A stretch of 37,975 nt of DNA, taken from the IMG/VR virus record IMGVR_UViG_3300032242_001019, positions 1 through 37,975 of that record. The stretch is one strand, 5' to 3'. This document shows positions 160 through 33,793 of the stretch, piece after piece (position 1 is the first letter of the stretch; each line of letters opens with the position of its first letter). The notes under the pieces were generated by a model. The model saw only the letters and a program-made list of their open reading frames with translations. It made no database searches and was not told where the DNA came from. The DNA comes from a virus. Lineage: Duplodnaviria; Caudoviricetes. A program made the position numbers and the translations under genes.

Positions 160-2211
160 GCTACTCCTAAATATACAACTTACACACCTGATCAAATTAC
201 CAATTACATCAAAACAAGTGGTATTAATTTGAATGATCCAGCCGCCGTGGCAGCTGCTGAAAAGCAAGCCAATATGGATCCAACGGCGTTTCAGGCTTAT
301 TTGGCAAGTATACAACAAACATCTGCCGCAACACCCAAATATACTTCGTATACCCCAGATCAAATTACTAATTACATTAATTCAAGCGGTATTAATTTGA
401 ATGATGCCACCGCCGTGGCAGCTGCTGAAAAGCAAGCAAATATGGATCCTGCGGCGTTTCAGGCTTACCAAAAGAGCCAAGATTACAATAATTTTTTAAA
501 TATTATTGGCAAAGGCTCTGCCTCTACAGCACCTTCAACTGAGGCAGCAAACCCAAGTGGTATTGCGTCTTTACCTGCTAGTAATCTTGTTGCTGGACAA
601 ACCGATAAAGCTATATCTTCTGACCAAGTTCCTGCTGGATCGAGCGGAACGGCAGCTTCCACCACTGCTACAAATGCTCCTGCTAACGCAGATACCATTA
701 CTCAAATTGTGTCGCAAGGTCAGGCAGCAGGTCAAAGTCCTGCGGAGATGGCTGCATCTCTTATTGCACAAGGTATTCCAGCCGCTGATGTTATTGCAGT
801 GGTTGGCCCACAGAACGCAGATGTTGTTAACCAAGCATACGCAGATGCTTCCGCTTATGGTGGAGATACAGCCGCAGCTCGTGGTGGATTGATGAGTTTA
901 AACTATGCTGAAGGCGGTGCTACACCACCCAGATATTTGCAAGGCCATACCGATGGCATGGCAGATGAACTCAATACATCCATTGATGGAGTCCAACCCG
1001 CCAAACTAAGCCACGGTGAGTTTGTTATTCCTGCGGATGTTGTATCCCACTTAGGAAATGGCAACTCAGACGCAGGTGCTAAAAAGCTTTATGAGATGAT
1101 GAGCAGGGTTCGCAAAGCTAGAACAGGCAATGAAAAGCAGGGTAAGAGAATTGATCCTGATAAATTCATGTATGGTGGAAGAGCTTATGCTAAAGGTGGC
1201 ATTGCTAGTTTTGATGGCACGACTGGCAGTACAGTATCTAATACCTCTGGAATCCCCGGCCTGACCAATACAGGCGGCACATCCACTCAAGGGTTATCTT
1301 CATATGTTGCCCCCTATGTGACCAACATGTTGGGACAAGGCCAAGCCTTGGCCAATACATCCATGCCTGTTTATCAAGGCCCATTGACCGCTGGTCAGTC
1401 AGCCCTACAGAACCAACAATTTATGGGTCTATCAGAGATGGCACAGACTGGGTATAACCCAATGCAGTTCCAAACTCAAAACTGGAGCAATCAAGGCACT
1501 CCACATATGCCTAACACATCAGTGCCAAGTCAAACCCAATCTGTTAGCCAAGCGGCCAATCAAGGCACAGCAGGCTATGGCCAGCCTATGAATCTAGGTA
1601 TGGGTCAAGGATCTAGTCCTGCTTCTCAGTACATGAATCCTTATCTATCTCAATCCCTACAGCCACAGTTAAATCTATTGGCTCAGACAGCCAAAACCAA
1701 TGAGCAAGGTGATTTGGGTAAGCTAACCTCTCAAGGCGCATTTGGTGGATCAAGACAAGCTGTTCTGCAAGGCATGGATCAGAATGCATTGCTAGGCCAG
1801 CAGGCTAACTTGATTGGCCAAGGCTACAACACAGCTTACAACGATGCTCAGGCTCAGTTCAATGCTGATCAACAAAGACAACTTGCAGCTCAACAACAAA
1901 CTGAAGCATCACGTCAGTTCAGCGGTAACTTTGGTCAACAAACATTGCAAGCTCTTGGTCAAGCTGGAGGAGTTCAGCAAGGCATTCAAAACGCCGCAGA
2001 TCAAGCCGCTTACGCAGAGTTCCAAAAACAACAACAATATCCCTATCAACAGTTGGCATTCGAGCAAAGCTTATTGCAGGGTCTACCTACAGGTTCTACA
2101 ACCACTACACCAAATGCTATGTCAGATTTGGGTACAGCTTTGGCTGCACTGGGCGTAGTTCAGAATCCTGCGTTGTCTAGCATATTTGGCTCATCAACGT
2201 CAAAAACTTAA
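1..2211 (+). CDS. Internal virion/ejection protein, 5'-partial (frame is open from base 1)
   Basis: The frame of ORF 229..2211 continues without a stop to position 1 (PTGTT repeats). It has repeated [YA]-A-x-GG motifs, a DGMAD...AKLSHGEFVIPADVV domain and a Q/G-rich C-terminal YMNPY...GAFGGSRQ segment typical of podophage DNA-transfer proteins. Confidence 0.7.
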   Translation, partial: PTGTTPTGTTIIPTGTTPTGTTPTGTTPAGTTPAGTTPAGTTIIPAGTTTGTTATPKYTTYTPDQITNYIKTSGINLNDPAAVAAAEKQANMDPTAFQAYLASIQQTSAATPKYTSYTPDQITNYINSSGINLNDATAVAAAEKQANMDPAAFQAYQKSQDYNNFLNIIGKGSASTAPSTEAANPSGIASLPASNLVAGQTDKAISSDQVPAGSSGTAASTTATNAPANADTITQIVSQGQAAGQSPAEMAASLIAQGIPAADVIAVVGPQNADVVNQAYADASAYGGDTAAARGGLMSLNYAEGGATPPRYLQGHTDGMADELNTSIDGVQPAKLSHGEFVIPADVVSHLGNGNSDAGAKKLYEMMSRVRKARTGNEKQGKRIDPDKFMYGGRAYAKGGIASFDGTTGSTVSNTSGIPGLTNTGGTSTQGLSSYVAPYVTNMLGQGQALANTSMPVYQGPLTAGQSALQNQQFMGLSEMAQTGYNPMQFQTQNWSNQGTPHMPNTSVPSQTQSVSQAANQGTAGYGQPMNLGMGQGSSPASQYMNPYLSQSLQPQLNLLAQTAKTNEQGDLGKLTSQGAFGGSRQAVLQGMDQNALLGQQANLIGQGYNTAYNDAQAQFNADQQRQLAAQQQTEASRQFSGNFGQQTLQALGQAGGVQQGIQNAADQAAYAEFQKQQQYPYQQLAFEQSLLQGLPTGSTTTTPNAMSDLGTALAALGVVQNPALSSIFGSSTSKT
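160..468 (+). repeat. Duplicated 47-codon segment (160-300 and 328-468)
   Basis: ATPKYT(T/S)YTPDQITNYI..SGINLND..AVAAAEKQANMDP.AFQAY occurs twice, with period 168 nt. Confidence 0.9.
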
Positions 2212-18801: not shown

Positions 18802-18980
18802 AAATGACTTGCAGGGGAATATTAGCACATATTAGAATAAAGGCACATCAAGAGATGTAGAGATTGGTGGGAAGAAGTCGGTCATTGGCGCTCTGAACTG
18901 CAACGTCTGGCCAGCCAGTTGTAGTTAACGCTTTCATCCCGATCCTCCACGCAGGTCATGACTGCAACAGTCTCTACTTC

Positions 18981-19064
18981 TGTTGGTGTGCAACGGGTTA
19001 GCGCCGTTGTAAACTCCTATTTGAGTTTGGAACACAACACACTGCTTTATGTGAAACACCAACA
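18981..19064 (+). ncRNA. Cloverleaf-like structured RNA (not a canonical tRNA; strand uncertain)
   Basis: Closing stem TGTTGGTGT/ACACCAACA with three hairpins: GCAACGG/CCGTTGT, AAACTC/GAGTTT and CACA/TGTG. Confidence 0.5.
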
Positions 19065-19086
19065 ACCCTACGTTTTACTCAGGTAC

Positions 19087-19115
19087 TTCACCTGCCTTTA
19101 TTTTTGTTATATACT
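19087..19115 (+). promoter_or_regulatory. Sigma70-like promoter of the replication operon
   Basis: TTCACC-N17-TATACT; predicted start near 19122, at the 5' end of the structured leader. Confidence 0.55.
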
Positions 19116-19121
19116 GCGCTC

Positions 19122-19240
19122 ATAGTTAGGTGTGGAAGCCAAACTGAAAGCCGTTAGATCTGATCCCGACCCCGAATGGGGTAGCGTTGCTCACAAAGCA
19201 GTGTTCTTCCACCGGGGTCAGTTCTAACGGCTTTTTTTTG
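19122..19240 (+). ncRNA. Structured leader/attenuator ending in a U8 tract
   Basis: Stems AAAGCCGTTAGA/TCTAACGGCTTT and CTGATCCCG/CGGGGTCAG, two internal hairpins, and GTGGAAG (19132) complementary to CTTCCAC (19206). Confidence 0.55.
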
Positions 19241-19508
19241 TCTCCATTTTTTCTATAACTCATTCACTGGTCGGTTAACAGTAGCGGTGAATGTTTAAAC
19301 CCCCCACTATGGGAAAGACAAGGAAGCAGGGGTACGGGTGGCGAAGTTAGCGCCCTATTGTCGAACGGCTGACGAGTCACGTGGCTCCGGAGAGCATGGT
19401 GTAAAGGGCTTAGGATAGGCTAAGTCCGTCCACCAAAGAGCATCCCCTTGGGGATGCAATGACGGCAAGTAAAGATATGACGGCTAAGACAGGGGGTTAT
19501 CACTAACC

Positions 19509-19940
19509 ATGCGTAAAGAATTCAGCACGGCACTTCACGATCAGTATGACTCCTACGGCAAGGCCAAGGTTAAGGCTTATTTCATGAAGGCTTACGGGGT
19601 TTTCCTGATGGAGAATGAAGACCGCTATGCGGTCGATCTTGTGGCTTACAAAGATGGAAAGAAGTTAGGGTATGTTGAGGTTGAGGTTAGGGAATCTTGG
19701 GGTGATAATGAATTCCCGTTTCCCACCTTGCACATCCCTGAGAGAAAAGGTAAATTGTTAAACAATGATTTGAAAACGGTGTTGGTCTCTGTCAACAAAA
19801 TTGGCACTCGGGCCTTTCTTTGCGATGGTGAGGTTATCCTTGCCTCACCCATCCAAGAGCGCAGTAATAAGTATGTCCAACAGGGTGAGAAGTTTTACCT
19901 TGTTGACCCCGCTCTAATTAAACTAATTGAATTGAGGTAA
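19509..19940 (+). CDS. PD-(D/E)XK-fold nuclease-like protein
   Basis: YAVDLV.....LGYVEVEVR..W...LHIPERK.K; restriction-endonuclease-like core with ExE. Confidence 0.5.
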   Translation: MRKEFSTALHDQYDSYGKAKVKAYFMKAYGVFLMENEDRYAVDLVAYKDGKKLGYVEVEVRESWGDNEFPFPTLHIPERKGKLLNNDLKTVLVSVNKIGTRAFLCDGEVILASPIQERSNKYVQQGEKFYLVDPALIKLIELR

Positions 19941-19943
19941 AGA

Positions 19944-20186
19944 ATGGCAACTCGCAATTACAAACAAGAATATGCAACGCAGAAAGAAAGAAATGAACAC
20001 CCCGACAGGATGGAAAGGCAAAGAGCTAGACGCAAGCTTGATGCCGAGGGGGTAAACAGACAAGGCAAGGACGTGGCACATGTCAAGGCTTTATCAAAAG
20101 GGGGCAGTAATAAGGACGGCGTTAAGTTGCAGCCTCCCAGCGTGAATCGCTCGTTTAAACGGAAGTCTGATGGCAGCATGAAATGA
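19944..20186 (+). CDS. Small HNH-like endonuclease
   Basis: GKDVAHVKALSKGGSN...NRS; GAGGT RBS. Confidence 0.6.
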   Translation: MATRNYKQEYATQKERNEHPDRMERQRARRKLDAEGVNRQGKDVAHVKALSKGGSNKDGVKLQPPSVNRSFKRKSDGSMK

Positions 20187-21850
20187 ATCCCGAGTTCATT
20201 GAGCAGTTCCATTTCACCGACACACTCAGGGTTACGTGTCCTGACTGTCGTGATGAGCGTAAGAAATCATCATCAAAAGACATGAGGCTGACCCGTCAAC
20301 CAGACGGGGCAGTTCTCTACCATTGCCATCATTGCCAAACAAACGGGTCAGTTCAACCCAAGGAGAGATATGTGTCTGCCGTTCCCAACATTCAAGTAGT
20401 CAGTAACGCACTGACGACCCCTCACTATGATTACCTCAAGTCGAGGGGGATATCAAAAGAGACCGCAGATAAAATGAAGCTGTTTGCGGCGGATAAGTTC
20501 TTCGGTCGTTTAAACAAAACCAGCGCAGCGATCGGCTTTCCGTATTACCGAGACGGCGCTTTGGTGGCGGTTAAATACCGAGCCTTTCCCGATAAAGACT
20601 TTACGCAGGAATCAGGGGGAGCGCATGATTTCTTTGGAATAGATCACGTGGTTAAGGGTAAACCCTTGATCATAGTAGAAGGTGAAATCGATGCCCTGAC
20701 CCTCATGGAGGCAGGGGTAGAGAACGCAGTCTCAGTTCCTAGCGGTGCTCCCATCAAGGTAGCGGATGGCAAGGTGTCGCCATCAGAAGACAAAAGATTT
20801 GCCTTTGTGTGGAACGCTAGGGAAGTTATTGATTCTGCGCCTTATGTGATTATCGCCACCGATCAGGACACCGCAGGACAAGCGTTGGCTGAAGAGTTGG
20901 CAAGAAGGATAGGTAAAGACAAATGTCGGCTGGCCAAGTTCGACATGAAAGATTTAAACGAGGTATACCTTGATGACCCCTTTCGGATAGAAGATATATT
21001 AAACAACGCCACGCCCTACCCAATCGCAGGGTTGTCCACGGCCGAGACCTACATGGAGCGTTTAAACGACCTGTACGCAGCGGGAACGGGTAAAGGCGCT
21101 TCAACTGGCTATTCTTCGCTGGATAACGTTTACACGATAGCGACATCACAGTTGTCCGTGGTTACTGGTTATCCTTCTTCAGGCAAGTCCAACTTTGTGG
21201 ATCAACTGATGGTCAACTTGGCCAAGAACGATGACTGGAAGTTTGCAGTATGTTCGTTTGAGAATCAGCCCGAGATCCACATCTCAAGGCTTATGGAGAT
21301 CTACACCAAGAAAAGGTTTTTTGATGGCAAAGAACGGATGACTCAGGAGGAAAAGGATCATGCGTTTAAATGGGTCAACGAACATTTCCTGTTTATCGAT
21401 ACAAACGGGGAAGAACCAAGTACATTGGAATCCATTCTTGAACGGGCAAAGGTGGCGGTGAAAAGAATGGGGATACGGGGTATGGTGATTGACCCGTACA
21501 ACTACATCGATTTAAACAGGGAATCGACCGAGACCGAAGCTATTTCCAATATGCTATCCAAGGTTCAAAGGTTTGTTAAAAGGCACGACATTCATTGTTG
21601 GTTCGTAGCTCACCCCTCCAAAATAAACCGCAGTGGTGTGGAACAACCAAGGCCTGACGGCATGGCTATATCAGGATCAATGGCATGGTGGGCTAAGACA
21701 GATTGTGGAATCACAATCCACAGAAAGGATAACTATGTAGAGGTGGCAGTTTGGAAATGTAGGTATAGATGGGTGGGTACGCAGGGGGAAACGACCCTTC
21801 TATATAACAAGACATCGGGCACATACTCCGAGAACCTCGACACCTTCTAG
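20183..21850 (+). CDS. T7 gp4/Twinkle-like primase-helicase
   Basis: CPDC...CHHC zinc finger, TOPRIM motifs IVEGEIDAL and ATDQD, SF4 Walker A GYPSSGKS, VIDPY and VAHP. Confidence 0.9.
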   Translation: MNPEFIEQFHFTDTLRVTCPDCRDERKKSSSKDMRLTRQPDGAVLYHCHHCQTNGSVQPKERYVSAVPNIQVVSNALTTPHYDYLKSRGISKETADKMKLFAADKFFGRLNKTSAAIGFPYYRDGALVAVKYRAFPDKDFTQESGGAHDFFGIDHVVKGKPLIIVEGEIDALTLMEAGVENAVSVPSGAPIKVADGKVSPSEDKRFAFVWNAREVIDSAPYVIIATDQDTAGQALAEELARRIGKDKCRLAKFDMKDLNEVYLDDPFRIEDILNNATPYPIAGLSTAETYMERLNDLYAAGTGKGASTGYSSLDNVYTIATSQLSVVTGYPSSGKSNFVDQLMVNLAKNDDWKFAVCSFENQPEIHISRLMEIYTKKRFFDGKERMTQEEKDHAFKWVNEHFLFIDTNGEEPSTLESILERAKVAVKRMGIRGMVIDPYNYIDLNRESTETEAISNMLSKVQRFVKRHDIHCWFVAHPSKINRSGVEQPRPDGMAISGSMAWWAKTDCGITIHRKDNYVEVAVWKCRYRWVGTQGETTLLYNKTSGTYSENLDTF

Positions 21851-23778: not shown

Positions 23779-25326
23779 TTATGCTACTAGTTTGATTTGT
23801 TTAAACGAGGCGTTTGCCAAGTCCCCAATGTCTCTGATACACACGTTGTTCTTGTATACACTCGACACGTCCAACTCGATGCCCACGCCCACTGTTGTGA
23901 TGCCAAGGTTATTGCCCTGCTTGATCTGACTTCTTACCTCATCCTTCCAACCATTGCCATCTGTCAAGACGAATGCAATCTTACGGGTCTCGGGGCGAGC
24001 GTTCAGGATCTCATGGGCATAACGTATCGCAAAGTAATCATTAGTTGAGTAGTTGGTATACAAGCGTGACAAGATCTGCTTGGCCTTGGCCACTGGGGTG
24101 TTGAATGGGACAAGCACTGAGGTGCGGAAATGAAAGGCAAGGATCTGCACGGCCACGCCTGCCTGAGCGAGGGTCTCATACAATGCCACGCAAGTCTTGA
24201 CTGCATTTCTCGCCCGTGACGCAGTCATGGATCCTGACGCATCGAGGACAATCACAACCGCAGAATCAATACCGCCCTCTTCATGATGGCGTTTAAACAC
24301 ACGCACATTACCCGTTGCAATTGATGCGAGCGCAGAGGAGTTGATCTGCCCTGCCTTGCGATTCAATTGGAATTCGTCAAGACCTGACTTCTCGAATAGT
24401 TGACGCACCTCATGACGCAACTTTGAGGGCACGACCACTGTAGTGTCAATGTTGACCGCTGGGTGAGTGTGATCCCCTGCATCTCCGAGTCCTGCGCTCT
24501 TGTCATATGATCCAATGCCTGCCTGACTCTCAGGAACCTCACAATTGGGCTCTGTTTCCCGTGCGTCTTGGCCATCGACTGGGGCGGTCGCCACGCCTTG
24601 ATCACCCTCGCCTGCACCCTCACCCTCACCCGATCCCGATTGATCGTTTGGAGCGTCTCCTGTGGCCTCCTGAGTGCCCTCCTCGCCCTTGCCTTGACCT
24701 TTGCCTTGACCCTTGTCTTGACCTTGTTCGGGTGACTGCTCAGGCAACTGTTTCAATTGCGACATGATCCACTCTGCAATTTTCAAAGTGTCATAGCTTG
24801 ACTTGGCACTGTCGATGCGAGCGCTCGCCTCATCAAATATTGGAGCGAGTCCCTGTGGCAGTGCGATTCGCTTGGCATAGCGTCTGCCGATGCAGGCGAA
24901 GAGCCAAGGATAATTACGGGGGTCATCCATGCCGTCCTCGCCTGCCTCAGCGATCATCTGATTGATCAGCTTGGCGAACACGCCTGCAATGTTGCCTGTC
25001 ATGCCATCGGCAATCGCTCTGCGCTCGATCCACACGTCCTCGACTGCATTGTGCAGTTGTCTCATGTATTGGGTTGTGGCCTTGACTGAGAAGTCGGTGT
25101 ATTTGACATGACACAATTCATGGATGACGAACCCAACATATCTGTCGAGAAAAGCCTGAGTCAAGACTGCATCATCTGCCACGTCTGCAAGCTTGACCTC
25201 GCCCTGCGAGTTGACGCAGGCAGTGGGGATATTGTCCCAAGTAATCCTACTGATTTTCAATGCACTATTGGCACTGATTTTGTTGAGGATCGACTCAACC
25301 CCTGCCTTGAATGTATGACCTCTCAT
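23779..25326 (-). CDS. vWA (MIDAS) protein with an N-terminal HExxH domain (CobT-like AAA+ partner)
   Basis: IHELCHVKYTDF...NAVEDVWIE, a G/Q/E-rich linker, VLDASGSM and LTDG. Confidence 0.85.
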   Translation of the reverse strand: MRGHTFKAGVESILNKISANSALKISRITWDNIPTACVNSQGEVKLADVADDAVLTQAFLDRYVGFVIHELCHVKYTDFSVKATTQYMRQLHNAVEDVWIERRAIADGMTGNIAGVFAKLINQMIAEAGEDGMDDPRNYPWLFACIGRRYAKRIALPQGLAPIFDEASARIDSAKSSYDTLKIAEWIMSQLKQLPEQSPEQGQDKGQGKGQGKGEEGTQEATGDAPNDQSGSGEGEGAGEGDQGVATAPVDGQDARETEPNCEVPESQAGIGSYDKSAGLGDAGDHTHPAVNIDTTVVVPSKLRHEVRQLFEKSGLDEFQLNRKAGQINSSALASIATGNVRVFKRHHEEGGIDSAVVIVLDASGSMTASRARNAVKTCVALYETLAQAGVAVQILAFHFRTSVLVPFNTPVAKAKQILSRLYTNYSTNDYFAIRYAHEILNARPETRKIAFVLTDGNGWKDEVRSQIKQGNNLGITTVGVGIELDVSSVYKNNVCIRDIGDLANASFKQIKLVA

Positions 25327-26717
25327 GATTGCACCCCCATGTACTTGTTGAAAATTTCAGCGTTTAAACAGGCAGACCCAATGCCCCGTAAGGCGATGCC
25401 CGAGTCCTCGACCTGACGATTGACCATCACTGATTCCCATGCCTCGACCATGCCAAGGTAAGGTACGGCCTGAATGAACCCGATCACTTGACGAATGGAT
25501 GGTGCATCGAGTATGTCCCCCGTCTCGACCTTGGCACGTGCGGTATGCACGGCCTTGATCACGTGAGTGGCCACTTCCCGATGGCATCCTGTATGCTTGA
25601 CCACCGCATCGATTTCAAGATGCACGGGCAGGAAAGTAAATTTAATCACGACAGTGAATCGATCGCCCAACGCAGAATTAGTAGTGCGTGTCCCTGCATA
25701 TCGGCCAGTGGTGTCACCATTGAGCAAAGTATTGTCTGCCCCGAAAATCATCACGCCCTCGGCCTTGCTCCACACCTGACCCCCGTATGTCACCTTGGCA
25801 TTGGGTTCGAGAAAACCATTCAAGGGTGCTAACTCACCCTGATCTGCGTTGGTGATCTCATCAAGCAGGATCACTGTCGAGGGGGCAGTGTAAGCAGTGA
25901 GGAAGTCCCCACGTTTAAACACTGTCGCCCCGTTCTCAAGACCCACATCACCCAAATAATCCGATGCAGTGGTGTACTTGTGGAAGTTATAACGCATGAA
26001 CCCACGGCCTGTACGTGCTGAGAATTGCTCGGCAGTCTGCGATTTCCCTGTGCCCTTCTCGCCCCCGAACCACGTATTGCGACCCGTGTCCTGAGCGAAT
26101 GCGAGGGTTCGGAGGATCGACTCAGTCCAAATAAAGCAGGGGTCAATTGCAGGGGCAGACGCATCATTGTAGATATCGAATTCAAAGGGGAGGTCGATCC
26201 CGAAAACATCAAGGCAGGACTTGCGATCCACTTTGATCACAGGGGTGAGGTTGGCGACCTTGGCCTCAGACCCTGTTGCAATGACGGCCTGTTTAAACGG
26301 GGCAAAGGCGTTGTCGATCAGGGTCTCAAGCTTGCGATTGACCTCTGCCTGATCCACTCCAACGCTGACCTCGGCAATGTCGGCCAGTGAGTCCTCAATC
26401 CTCTGAATGGCCTTGGACTGCACGTCTAGGGTGTTGGTCAATGCCTTGATTTTCTCGACCGATTCCAACGCCACGGCCTGAGCATTATTGGCCACGGCCT
26501 CAAGCGCAGGGTTGGCCGTACTGACAACGGGGGCGAAAGGTAATGCCTGCTTTATGTCATCAAGGGTCAACTTCCCTGCATCGATTTGGCCATCAAGCCA
26601 TTGGATCATGACTGACTTATCTGTCGGTGGTCTTGGATCACCTGAAAATTTCAGGTAAGCCCCCGTGATTGTGGCGAGTGGCAGGGTCACCATAATTTGT
26701 TTGTTGACGATTCCCAT
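25323..26717 (-). CDS. MoxR/CobS/CbbQ-like AAA+ ATPase
   Basis: Walker A GEKGTGKS, Walker B ILLDEI, NT...Y.GT...N.AL.DRF and SIRQ; start MGIVNK with a GAGGA RBS. Confidence 0.85.
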   Translation of the reverse strand: MGIVNKQIMVTLPLATITGAYLKFSGDPRPPTDKSVMIQWLDGQIDAGKLTLDDIKQALPFAPVVSTANPALEAVANNAQAVALESVEKIKALTNTLDVQSKAIQRIEDSLADIAEVSVGVDQAEVNRKLETLIDNAFAPFKQAVIATGSEAKVANLTPVIKVDRKSCLDVFGIDLPFEFDIYNDASAPAIDPCFIWTESILRTLAFAQDTGRNTWFGGEKGTGKSQTAEQFSARTGRGFMRYNFHKYTTASDYLGDVGLENGATVFKRGDFLTAYTAPSTVILLDEITNADQGELAPLNGFLEPNAKVTYGGQVWSKAEGVMIFGADNTLLNGDTTGRYAGTRTTNSALGDRFTVVIKFTFLPVHLEIDAVVKHTGCHREVATHVIKAVHTARAKVETGDILDAPSIRQVIGFIQAVPYLGMVEAWESVMVNRQVEDSGIALRGIGSACLNAEIFNKYMGVQS

Positions 26718-26728
26718 GATTTTGATCC

Positions 26729-27313
26729 TCAAACTAAGGTTAAAGCTTGGCCATCGATCGGGCAGGCAGGCAGGCGAGGGTTGCCATACTGGTCATATGC
26801 CCACTTGGCAGTCAGGCGAATGGTATAACCGCAGGCACACATGGCCTTGAGCATCCTAGTGCCCTGCGTCTTGCGTGTGGCGTATGACAGTTGAGCGTGA
26901 GGGTAGTCACCGAGTGACTGAATGATTGCCCCGTAGCGTGTCATGAAGTCGAGCGCACCCGATGTGGCCTTGTATCCACGGGTTGCAGAGGGGACTAAGC
27001 CCATTGCATCGGCAATGCGTTTAAACATTGCACCATGATTCATTGCCCCGTTCGTGGTGTGGCAAAGCTCATGGATCACACACTCAGCGACTGCCTGCGG
27101 ATCGGCCAACTCGGGGGAGATTAGAATCTCATAGTGGTTATCGCCACTATTTTGGCAGGGAAAGCACTCGCCAATGGCACGTGAGCGCTTGGCGTTGAGA
27201 GGGAAACCGCAGGTGATGCGAATGGCCTGTGGTAAGGGTGACCCGTAAAGGTCAAACATGGGTCGCAACTCTTGAATGAGTGCGACAAGATACTCTTCAC
27301 GTGTTGAAAACAT
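26729..27313 (-). CDS. SprT-like zinc metalloprotease with a C-terminal zinc ribbon
   Basis: IGEC...EILISP...HELCH...HG..FK..A..MGL and CACGY.IR...CP; GGAGG RBS before MFSTREEY. Confidence 0.75.
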   Translation of the reverse strand: MFSTREEYLVALIQELRPMFDLYGSPLPQAIRITCGFPLNAKRSRAIGECFPCQNSGDNHYEILISPELADPQAVAECVIHELCHTTNGAMNHGAMFKRIADAMGLVPSATRGYKATSGALDFMTRYGAIIQSLGDYPHAQLSYATRKTQGTRMLKAMCACGYTIRLTAKWAYDQYGNPRLPACPIDGQALTLV

Positions 27314-27375
27314 AAAGTCCTCCAAAAGTAGTGCGACATTGCACTGATAAGCCCGTGGGGCTTACCGCTGAAATG

Positions 27376-28946: not shown

Positions 28947-29002
28947 ACTGATTGTTTAAACAGGAAGTGAGAAGCATAGAATATGCGTATAGGAGCAAAG
29001 CG

Positions 29003-29233
29003 ATGACTGAGAAGGATCAGCTCATATTAGATTTCATTAAAGCCTACATTAAGTTGCATGGCGTAGCGCCGTCTTATTCTGTAATAGCCCGTGGCGTGAA
29101 TAAGCAGTCTAAGTCCAATATACATAGGGTGGTACATAAATTAATAGATGAGGGCAAGATAGCCATGAAGCCTCATAAGGCAAGAAGTATTAGGGTGACG
29201 GACAGATCTGTAAAAGCTATGGTTAATCTATGA
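29003..29233 (+). CDS. Stand-alone LexA-type winged-helix DNA-binding protein (no peptidase domain)
   Basis: MTEKDQLILDFIKAYIKLHGVAPSYSVIA...SKSNIHRVVHKL..EG.I...P.KARSI; AGGAG RBS. Confidence 0.75.
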   Translation: MTEKDQLILDFIKAYIKLHGVAPSYSVIARGVNKQSKSNIHRVVHKLIDEGKIAMKPHKARSIRVTDRSVKAMVNL

Positions 29234-33202: not shown

Positions 33203-33399
33203 TGGAAGAAAAGATACTCAAGCATTTGCTAACCGAATTAAGAGAGAAGGAACGTTCCCTCTCAATGAGTCTAGGTGACGGGGGGGCCTCGGACTTCCCC
33301 GCTTACCGAGATATGTGCGGCCAGATTAGGGGTCTCTTGTACGCACAGAATTTAATCACAGACCTCTTACGAAAAATGGAGCAAATAGACGATGAGTGA
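33199..33399 (+). CDS. Conserved small head-module protein
   Basis: L..G.A.DF..YR..CG.IRGL; between portal and the GroES-like gene. Confidence 0.7.
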   Translation: MMEEKILKHLLTELREKERSLSMSLGDGGASDFPAYRDMCGQIRGLLYAQNLITDLLRKMEQIDDE

Positions 33400-33793
33400 T
33401 CTTTTAATCAGCGATGGAGAGGCAACGACTACTCTCCCAGACAACGCAGAAGACAAGGCAAAACAATTGCCTGATCCAGTTCGTTTTCAAATTCTTACAG
33501 TCTTACCCGAGATTGATGATGAATATGAAAGCGGATTGGCTAAAGCTAAAACCACAATACATTATGAAGAAGTGCTTTCGCCAGTACTATTTGTAGTGAA
33601 ACTTGGCCCAGATGCTTACAAAGATCCAACCAGATTCCCATCTGGCCCATCCTGTAAGGTTGGCGATTTCGTTATCGTCCGTCCCAATACAGGTACACGA
33701 CTCAAGATTCATGGCAAAGAATTCAGGATCATTAACGATGATTCTGTTGAAGCCGTGGTTCAAGATCCCCGTGGTATCAGTCGAGCATCATAA
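33392..33793 (+). CDS. GroES/Cpn10-like co-chaperonin
   Basis: P..FQIL...ESGL...VVKLGPDAY...CKVGDFVI...G.....GKEFRIINDD.V.AVV. Confidence 0.75.
   Translation: MSDLLISDGEATTTLPDNAEDKAKQLPDPVRFQILTVLPEIDDEYESGLAKAKTTIHYEEVLSPVLFVVKLGPDAYKDPTRFPSGPSCKVGDFVIVRPNTGTRLKIHGKEFRIINDDSVEAVVQDPRGISRAS

What the first reader, a model, noticed from the sequence alone, without database searches (positions are those of the whole stretch)
18981..19240. Cloverleaf RNA complementary to an attenuator-like leader of the replication operon
Seen: an 84-nt four-way junction at 18981-19064. Its last arm, ACACTGCTTTATGTGA (19039-19054), is complementary to TCAC-AAAGCAGTGT (19191-19204): 10 contiguous bp plus 4 more after a 2-nt bulge. 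That target is a hairpin within a leader that starts at a predicted promoter (TTCACC-17-TATACT). The leader forms a ~21-bp basal stem followed by U8 and has a GTGGAAG/CTTCCAC pseudoknot option. Known: P1 C4 and P4 CI RNAs are processed cloverleaf antisense RNAs that control termination of neighbouring operons. Inference: an RNA-RNA switch gating primase-helicase expression, possibly for immunity or a lytic/carrier decision in a phage with no visible integrase or CI repressor.
Basis: partly seen in the sequence, partly recalled or inferred. Interest (0 to 1): 0.72.

Follow-up and report, generated by a model that had tools for sequence, protein, structure and literature searches.

The report
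Phage RNA gate plus swappable sRNA
This freshwater phage carries two separate folded-RNA modules: a leader with a seven-letter self-pairing code that changes from phage to phage and likely gates its replication genes, like the immunity RNAs of phages P1 and P4, and a widespread cloverleaf with a fixed frame and a swappable middle that likely acts as an antisense RNA on targets not yet found, while the arm-to-leader pairing first proposed is not kept in relatives.

Summary
Both structures are real, but the proposed link between them is not supported. The complementary arm is an invariant loop of a widespread RNA family (about 660 viral stretches, plus prophages of Burkholderiales). Its target occurs in 1 of 58 homologous leaders, the window's own, and is missing in a relative whose cloverleaf is 73/74 identical.

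The C4/CI-like element is the 'leader' itself: promoter, 5' hairpin with a 7-nt loop (a), long stem with an unpaired complement (a'), U-run. It lies before primase-helicase in 58 of 80 relatives. The a/a' match is at least 6 nt in 52 of 52 and 89 of 98 leaders, in 31 sequence variants, which suggests a self-regulating terminator with immunity-like specificity.

The cloverleaf matches no Rfam family. Its stems covary, two loops are fixed, and its 13-43-nt middle is enriched for anti-Shine-Dalgarno tracts (23 of 90 vs 4.6 shuffled). No mRNA target was found. One subfamily pairs 13-18 bp with leader a-hairpins through a U-run, a post-hoc lead for inter-phage silencing. No transcript or function was shown. 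New variant of a known kind.

The parts
18809..18838 (+). Weak promoter-like site (TTGCAG-18-TAGAAT) that may drive the two-cassette non-coding transcript
   Evidence: By inspection; below the scan threshold; similar site in L123
18853..18981 (+). Cassette B: second conserved structured RNA closed by a long basal stem, directly before the cloverleaf
   Evidence: 52 viral stretches, 44 distinct, a few of them chance matches in coding DNA; no Rfam hit; one 92%-alike contig in a lake RNA library
18981..19064 (+). Cloverleaf RNA, member of a family with no Rfam match: basal stem, hairpin with fixed 7-nt loop, variable middle, hairpin with fixed 8-nt loop
18997..19003 (+). Near-invariant loop GUUAGCG; could pair 4 bp with the second loop (not provable, the columns hardly vary)
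19011..19039 (+). Variable middle (candidate guide) with anti-SD-like CUCCUA at 19014-19019, partly paired in a small hairpin
19042..19051 (+).
19080..19094 (+). Short inverted repeat overlapping the -35 box; terminator-like for the upstream cassettes or an operator
19087..19115 (+). Sigma-70-type promoter of the leader
   Evidence: >=9/12 sites before 18 of 21 homologous leaders
19125..19144 (+). 5' hairpin carrying site a (GUGGAAG, 19132-19138), like the published c4-a1b1 target hairpin
19147..19239 (+). C4-shaped domain fused into a terminator-like stem: 22 basal pairs, hairpins 19169-19182 and 19183-19205, unpaired a' (CUUCCAC, 19206-19212), U8 (19232-19239)
19191..19204 (+).
19260..19377 (+). 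Betaproteobacteria-1 RNA motif (Rfam RF02932), first element after the U-run
   Evidence: 90.6 bits, E 9.9e-16
19509..20186 (+). Two small ORFs (143 aa, no PHROG hit; 80 aa, PHROGs of unknown function)
20183..21850 (+). DNA primase/helicase, the main gene downstream of the leader
   Evidence: phrog_239, E 5e-92

Best explanation
The region holds two independent RNA modules, a promoter-driven leader with a covarying seven-base self-pairing code that likely works as a C4/CI-type self-regulating terminator for the primase-helicase operon, and a cloverleaf with a fixed frame and variable middle that likely acts in trans as an antisense RNA, while their arm-to-hairpin complementarity is most likely coincidence. 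Shown: the folds, the covariation, the placement and the loss of the arm match in relatives. Inferred for the leader: in a fresh transcript a' pairs with its own 5' loop a just before the closing strand is made, which would hinder the terminator stem and allow read-through. Terminated copies, once trimmed of their 5' hairpin, would expose a' and bind the a loop of new transcripts in trans, restoring termination. That would damp the phage's own replication genes and block phages with the same code. Inferred for the cloverleaf: it would be cut from early transcripts at its basal stem, the two fixed loops would hold the fold or bind a host factor, and the middle would pair with purine-rich stretches (ribosome-binding sites or leader a-loops). 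The direction of the switch, the processing and all targets are untested.
For: Leader: found before primase-helicase in 58 of 80 relatives (18 of the 22 misses have under 1,800 nt upstream). a/a' complement >=6 nt in 21 of 21 leaders found by stem and U-run alone, in 52 of 52 distinct leaders with 31 variants vs 17% for cross pairs, and in 89 of 98 from a later scan. Its topology matches the published C4 alignment rows, and its 5' hairpin matches a c4-a1b1 row with the same GUGGAAG loop (PMC2864571 supplement passages). In P4, a CI RNA processed from the leader stops transcription of the replication genes by pairing with an upstream site (PMC4825925 passage). Cloverleaf: about 660 viral stretches; both flanking stems in 123 of 125 viral matches; 7 pairs with double-sided change, 110 cells vs 28.4 shuffled, 0 of 500; basal helix >=6 bp in 139 of 143 vs 40% for mixed arms; varied contexts, with a gene just downstream in 45 and array repeats in 48 of 142; anti-SD in 23 of 90 representatives vs 4.6 (0 of 200). 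Independence.
Against: No transcript of either element was found. The terminator has a large structured loop, which is unusual, and nothing shows which way the pseudoknot shifts it. No downstream a2 site in the window and in only 2 of 21 leaders, and no Rfam C4 hit. No mRNA target for any middle. Under stricter clustering the anti-SD excess is only 5 of 40 vs 1.67 (5 of 300), and anti-SD tracts are barely more exposed than the rest (0.58 vs 0.52). The modules are not fully independent: all 23 cloverleafs in the 80 primase loci sit next to a leader, and middles pair somewhat better with their own leader than expected (0.379 vs 0.46-0.57; the pairs are related).
Confidence: 0.6

Rival explanations
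1. One reading: the cloverleaf is the C4/CI-like regulator and gates the leader through its CUGCUUUAUG arm.
For: 10+4 bp exist, with p 0.0076 for this pair alone. A further 5 bp between the cloverleaf linker and a' can be added by inspection. L123 has another 10-nt match between linker and a' flank. The two elements are neighbours in 23 of 23 loci.
Against: The arm is invariant across the family. The target is in 1 of 58 leaders; arm match >=7 nt in 2 of 22 pairs, one of them not in the loop; 2 of 75 loci; lost in L123. The target is mostly paired; no dimer gain; middle-plus-arm ranks equal shuffles (0.42 vs 0.39-0.49).
Confidence: 0.07
2. Cloverleafs are accessory anti-leader RNAs: their middles bind the a-hairpins of this leader family in the same or rival phages, with U-runs reading several purine codes by wobble, and so shut off competitors' replication genes.
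For: The own-leader signal localises to the a-hairpin (0.344 vs 0.39-0.51). A subfamily in 19 viral stretches pairs 13-18 bp across GUG-class a-loops; the L501/L043 middle pairs 17 bp with the window's own 19130-19146; most of these loci have a leader within 1.5 kb (17 model hits). 12-30 of 79 a-hairpins score >=24 vs 0.1-0.6% of random windows. On the later target set: 29 vs 19.8 at score >=18 (5 of 478) and 5 vs 1.8 at >=26 (17 of 478).
Against: Chosen post hoc among about 90 middles, with about 0.2 hits >=32 expected by chance. No excess without anchoring on the loop; weak at representative level; exact a' 7-mers not enriched (6 vs 3.2, 24 of 200). U-rich middles match many random sites: the a-hairpin ranks 3rd-6th in 2.1 Mb for three guides and is outside the top 8 for L501. 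SD decoys are enriched more (24.5 vs 10.1). The a-hairpins are one related family, and the 10-nt core was fixed by the search pattern. The window's own middle has no long match.
Confidence: 0.25
3. The leader pseudoknot acts only in cis (a fixed fold or a protein/ligand-responsive attenuator), and code variation is neutral covariation.
For: The a/a' pair is fully explained as an intramolecular pseudoknot; no second target site; inner hairpins vary between one and two.
Against: 31 codes among close relatives with a conserved frame and a GU start of the loop resemble the specificity loops described for C4 (PMC5320573 passage).
Confidence: 0.25
4. The cloverleaf is a protein-binding decoy or tRNA-like mimic whose function lies in the two fixed loops; the middle is a loosely constrained linker.
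For: Sixteen invariant columns in 60 diverse members (partly fixed by the search pattern); middles as short as 13 nt; no target found; tRNA-like layout, and tRNA genes next to some copies.
Against: Anti-SD excess against shuffles and flanks (36 vs 7 and 2 of 139); conserved middle subfamilies; no tRNA call.
Confidence: 0.2

Closest known systems
Phage P1/P7 C4 antisense RNA and its a1/b1 target (Rfam RF01695; c4-a1b1 motif, PMC2864571)
   Same: The window's leader has the same layout as the C4 alignment rows (long stem, two hairpins, unpaired 7-nt segment) and a 5' hairpin whose loop is complementary to that segment; the segment varies between phages.
   Different: The C4-shaped domain is fused into a terminator-like stem ending in U8, right behind the a-hairpin. 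No downstream a2 site, no clear b/b' pair, no icd/ant hit, no Rfam score. It precedes primase-helicase, and many relatives keep only one inner hairpin.
Satellite phage P4 CI RNA with seqA/seqC; Gifsy-1 IsrK (PMC4825925)
   Same: A leader-derived antisense RNA pairs with an upstream site and stops transcription of replication genes; the same logic is proposed here.
   Different: No downstream seqC equivalent was found; the stop would be the RNA's own stem and U-run; no sequence-family match.
c4-2 motif (PMC5737381)
   Same: [quoted passage not shown]
   Different: No Rfam hit at E<=10. The supplement that describes it could not be read, so overlap in description is not excluded.
Trans-encoded SD-pairing sRNAs (e.g. 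GcvB, C-rich sRNAs; recalled, no call)
   Same: The cloverleaf middle carries anti-SD tracts above chance.
   Different: A fixed two-loop frame with a swappable middle, carried as cassettes in phage arrays; no target shown; G/U-rich seeds not enriched (12 vs 9.1 of 40).
UG27 reverse-transcriptase ncRNA arrays (bioRxiv 10.64898/2026.09.22.753630)
   Same: Phage arrays of structure-conserved, sequence-variable ncRNA units that are gained and lost.
   Different: Those units are about 135-167 nt and tied to a reverse transcriptase. Here the units are about 85 nt, usually one copy per phage, and there was no RT hit among 34 proteins.

Membership tests
C4 antisense RNA (leader domain 19147-19239) | Three stems P1-P3 with an unpaired a' segment | tested here: met
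   Folds against the C4 rows seen; many relatives have one inner hairpin only
C4 antisense RNA (leader domain 19147-19239) | a' complementary to an upstream a1 site, varying in step | tested here: met
   52 of 52, 31 variants; 89 of 98
C4 antisense RNA (leader domain 19147-19239) | Second pair b'/b | tested here: inconclusive
   By inspection only; no separate b site seen between promoter and stem
C4 antisense RNA (leader domain 19147-19239) | Downstream a2/b2 target at the ribosome-binding site of an icd/ant-type gene | tested here: not met
   No a site within 700 nt in the window; 2 of 21 leaders have one; no antirepressor PHROG among 34 proteins
C4 antisense RNA (leader domain 19147-19239) | Rfam C4 / c4-2 score | tested here: not met
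   No hit at E<=5 or E<=10; none in 20 and 13 related loci at gathering score
C4 antisense RNA (leader domain 19147-19239) | Release by RNase P and action in trans | not testable with these tools
   Only one contig-level RNA run was available, and it did not cover the element
P4 CI RNA system | Targets both upstream (seqA) and downstream (seqC) | tested here: not met
   Upstream site present, downstream absent
P4 CI RNA system | RNA-dependent premature termination before replication genes | not testable with these tools
   The placement fits; termination was not measured
C4/CI (cloverleaf 18981-19064) | Exposed segment complementary to its own leader, covarying | tested here: not met
tRNA (cloverleaf 18981-19064) | ARAGORN/Rfam tRNA call | tested here: not met
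SD-pairing trans sRNA (cloverleaf) | Anti-SD tract above chance | tested here: met
   23 of 90 vs 4.6; weaker, 5 of 40 vs 1.67,
SD-pairing trans sRNA (cloverleaf) | A specific conserved mRNA target | tested here: inconclusive
   None found; short seeds with mismatches would be missed and the host is unknown

The most novel reading that the evidence does not exclude
Betaproteobacterial phages run an RNA-coded arms race. Each gates its replication operon with a self-made terminator RNA keyed by a 7-nt code. A second, modular cloverleaf RNA with a constant frame and swappable guide is aimed at the code loops of rival phages or at ribosome-binding sites, and one subfamily uses a U-run as a wobble master key for a whole class of codes: a naturally programmable phage antisense platform carried in cassette arrays.
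Probability: 0.25. Interest if true: 0.85.

Novelty: new variant of a known kind. Interest (0 to 1): 0.6.

Why it matters
The leader shows that C4/CI-type RNA control is near-universal in an abundant, uncultured freshwater phage clade, in a compact form (target, antisense segment and terminator in about 115 nt) with dozens of natural codes. That predicts immunity groups from sequence and offers a ready set of orthogonal RNA switches, testable with a simple reporter. The cloverleaf is a large phage RNA family with no Rfam match, a fixed frame and a swappable middle. If the middle is a guide, it is a natural programmable sRNA chassis and a possible RNA-level weapon between phages or against the host.

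Tried and rejected
Arm-to-leader pairing as a conserved interaction: rejected.

Own-phage targets: longest exact matches in 24 phage records were mostly at chance level. Three had p<=0.03 in 30 shuffles, including 14 nt at window 1467 inside a virion gene; none was an extended ribosome-binding-site match. Own start regions looked enriched (mean rank 8.2 vs 12.5, including one self-match) but not with a shuffle control and another score (11.96 vs 12.7, 18 of 60).

Cis pairing with the downstream ribosome-binding site: 4 vs 3.9 expected.

Collection scans for the complement of middles: 35 viral stretches (3 the motif itself, the rest generic ribosome-binding sites or unrelated); 45 metagenome stretches with no extension over 5 nt; 3 viral stretches, all the motif. 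Host isolates: 7 and 6 near-matches, none convincing. One 13-mer in 301 family genomes: 21 hits vs 6 control, no shared gene.

Mimicry of a-loops: 12 vs 6.1 of 90 (1 of 200), driven by one subfamily, one of seven tests.

Expression: one lake RNA run with share 0.04; one contig over cassette B only, which shows nothing for the two elements.

Cultured phages: one environmental isolate matched part of the region, no host given.

Literature: eight searches showed no description of either family. The two core motifs were absent from 6 supplementary files of PMC10690425, but 3 files were not searched and the supplement of PMC5737381 was unreadable.

Full report
Setting. The window is a 37,975-nt virus record, about 63% complete, of a tailed phage with terminase, portal, major head protein, Sak-like annealing protein, RusA-like resolvase and primase/helicase (34 ORFs scanned, none hit an integrase). 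The finding lies in the gap between the RusA-like gene (ends 18801) and an operon leading to primase/helicase (20183-21850). Rfam finds one family there, Betaproteobacteria-1 at 19260-19377, and nothing on the two elements themselves. ARAGORN finds no tRNA.

Observation. The 10-nt complement has a chance of 0.0076 for this pair alone and 0.135 anywhere in the shuffled gap, so relatives had to decide.

The cloverleaf is a family member. A pattern from its two loops hit 120 listed viral stretches, about 660 estimated. Five of the 120 did not continue the motif and fell out under the longer pattern; 123 of 125 remaining viral matches have both flanking stems. Of 68 stretches in bacterial genomes, 18 loci carry true copies. 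Fifteen of these are labelled with Burkholderiales or betaproteobacterial names (Variovorax, Curvibacter, Comamonas, Rhodoferax, Achromobacter, Bordetella, Castellaniella, Undibacterium); the other 50 are chance matches. On 60 of the 143 members, 7 of 13 pairs change on both sides (110 cells vs 28.4 shuffled, 0 of 500; slid controls 24-51% paired vs 96.7%). The basal helix is >=6 bp in 139 of 143 against 40% for mixed arms, and the middle is 13-43 nt and variable. The two loops are nearly invariant (partly fixed by the pattern); a 4-bp contact between them is possible but has no covariation support. Copies sit before unrelated genes (45 of 142), in cassette arrays (48 of 142) or beside the leader, mostly one per phage.

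The proposed pairing fails. The arm is the invariant loop. Its complement AAAGCAG lies within 400 nt downstream in 2 of 75 loci and in 1 of 58 homologous leaders, the window's. In 22 distinct loci with both elements the arm match is >=7 nt in 2, and the second is not in the loop. L123, with 97% primase identity, keeps 73 of 74 cloverleaf bases but has a different hairpin 2. The site is mostly paired. Dimer folding gives no gain and -4.5 kcal/mol with other ends; loop-loop kissing is not modelled. Against this reading, L123 has a different 10-nt match, from the cloverleaf linker to the a' flank.

The leader is the C4-like element. A covariance model finds it upstream of primase/helicase in 58 of 80 relatives; 18 of the 22 misses have under 1,800 nt of upstream DNA. 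Leaders collected by stem and U-run alone all have a 6-10-nt complement between the 5' region and the unpaired segment (21 of 21; cross pairs 25%, 9% between different types). The larger sets give 52 of 52 with 31 variants (cross 17%) and 89 of 98. A >=9/12 promoter precedes 18 of 21. The published C4 rows show the same stem-hairpin-hairpin-segment-stem order, and a c4-a1b1 row has the same GUGGAAG loop (PMC2864571, supplement passages). PMC5320573 (passages) describes three stems, RNase P release and a variable a' loop that sets specificity. PMC4825925 (passages) describes P4 CI stopping transcription of replication genes through seqA and seqC. What differs here: the domain is fused into a terminator-like stem, there is no downstream site (2 of 21 leaders, not the window), no clear b pair, no antirepressor hit and no Rfam score. 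It works like C4/CI by inference but is not filed as a member. My model is inferred, not shown: cis pairing of a with a' favours read-through; trimmed, terminated copies bind the a loop of new transcripts and restore termination, giving feedback and code-specific exclusion. A cis-only role remains possible.

What the cloverleaf middle does. Anti-SD tracts occur in 36 of 143 members vs 5.4 shuffled, in 36 of 139 vs 7 and 2 in flanks, and in 23 of 90 representatives vs 4.6, but in only 5 of 40 vs 1.67 under single-linkage clustering. All searches for mRNA targets failed. A residual signal points to the leader. Middles rank their own leader better than shuffles do (0.379 vs 0.46-0.57; 39 related pairs, 14 shuffles), mainly at the a-hairpin (0.344 vs 0.39-0.51; 6 shuffles). 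One subfamily (19 stretches; 17 leader hits nearby) pairs 13-18 bp across GUG-class a-loops, with a U-run opposite the variable purines; one version pairs 17 bp with window 19130-19146. This was picked after the fact. About 0.2 such scores are expected among 90 middles, the unanchored test shows no excess, the anchored excess is modest, SD decoys are enriched more (24.5 vs 10.1), and U-rich middles hit many random sites. It is a lead, about 25%. The window's own middle shows only a possible 7-bp pairing with a GUAGGAG-type loop, by inspection.

Expression. One lake RNA library held one contig over cassette B at 90-95% likeness and nothing over the two elements; this is not evidence either way.

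Novelty. Eight literature searches showed no description of either family. Also seen: PMC5737381 (main-text passages; supplement unreadable), PMC10690425 (part 2 of 5 of the text; 6 supplement files searched, 3 not), PMC12197685 (passages) and the Minerva preprint (abstract and section 9). The unseen supplements may list these motifs without a function. The comparison with GcvB and C-rich sRNAs is recalled and comes from no call.

Verdict. Observation confirmed, interpretation partly supported: the C4/CI idea belongs to the leader, the arm pairing is most likely coincidence, and the cloverleaf is a family with no Rfam match and a swappable middle. New variant of a known kind; interest 0.6.

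Noticed in passing
window 18853-18981; L447-L498: Cassette B is a second complex RNA family with no Rfam hit (52 viral stretches, 44 distinct, some chance matches), with apparent covarying stems and often self-complementary loop sequences; 9 of 44 have a cloverleaf within 700 nt. Ribozyme, riboswitch-like or dimerising RNA not tested.
   Followed up: partly
L037:1450-2400; L155:2200-2620; L194:1950-2260: Arrays of up to about seven different stem-closed RNA cassettes joined by two recurring spacer sequences, in L037 and L155 followed by tRNA genes; they look like swappable small-RNA arrays.
   Followed up: partly
window 19260-19377; L147, L155, L157, L167, L171, L194 just after the leader: The slot right after the leader's U-run holds Betaproteobacteria-1 RNA here and other conserved structured elements, or a cloverleaf, in relatives. 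This ties the orphan Rfam motif to phage replication operons.
   Followed up: no
window 19378-19470: Further stable hairpins between Betaproteobacteria-1 and the first ORF (z -2.87), conserved in L123, L125, L134 and L135.
   Followed up: no
window 19080-19094; L147 and L155 promoters: Inverted repeats overlap the leader promoter and could be operators. A 93-aa ORF at 28952-29233 has a weak repressor-family hit.
   Followed up: no
window 1467-1480: 14-nt exact complement of the cloverleaf middle inside the gene for a DNA-ejection protein (p 0.03 in 30 shuffles); probably chance.
   Followed up: partly
window 33392-33793; L433: The phage encodes a GroES-like protein, and one metagenome match to the middle's complement is the ribosome-binding site of a groES-like gene, recognised from its translation; only 3 further pairs, so not support.
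   Followed up: no
window 19509-19940; L123, L125: The gene after the RNA block differs between close relatives; nuclease-like by inspection, no PHROG hit in the window.
   Followed up: no
window 23779-27325 (-): CobT-like VWA and CobS/MoxR-like ATPase gene pair plus a neighbouring ORF of unknown family.
   Followed up: no
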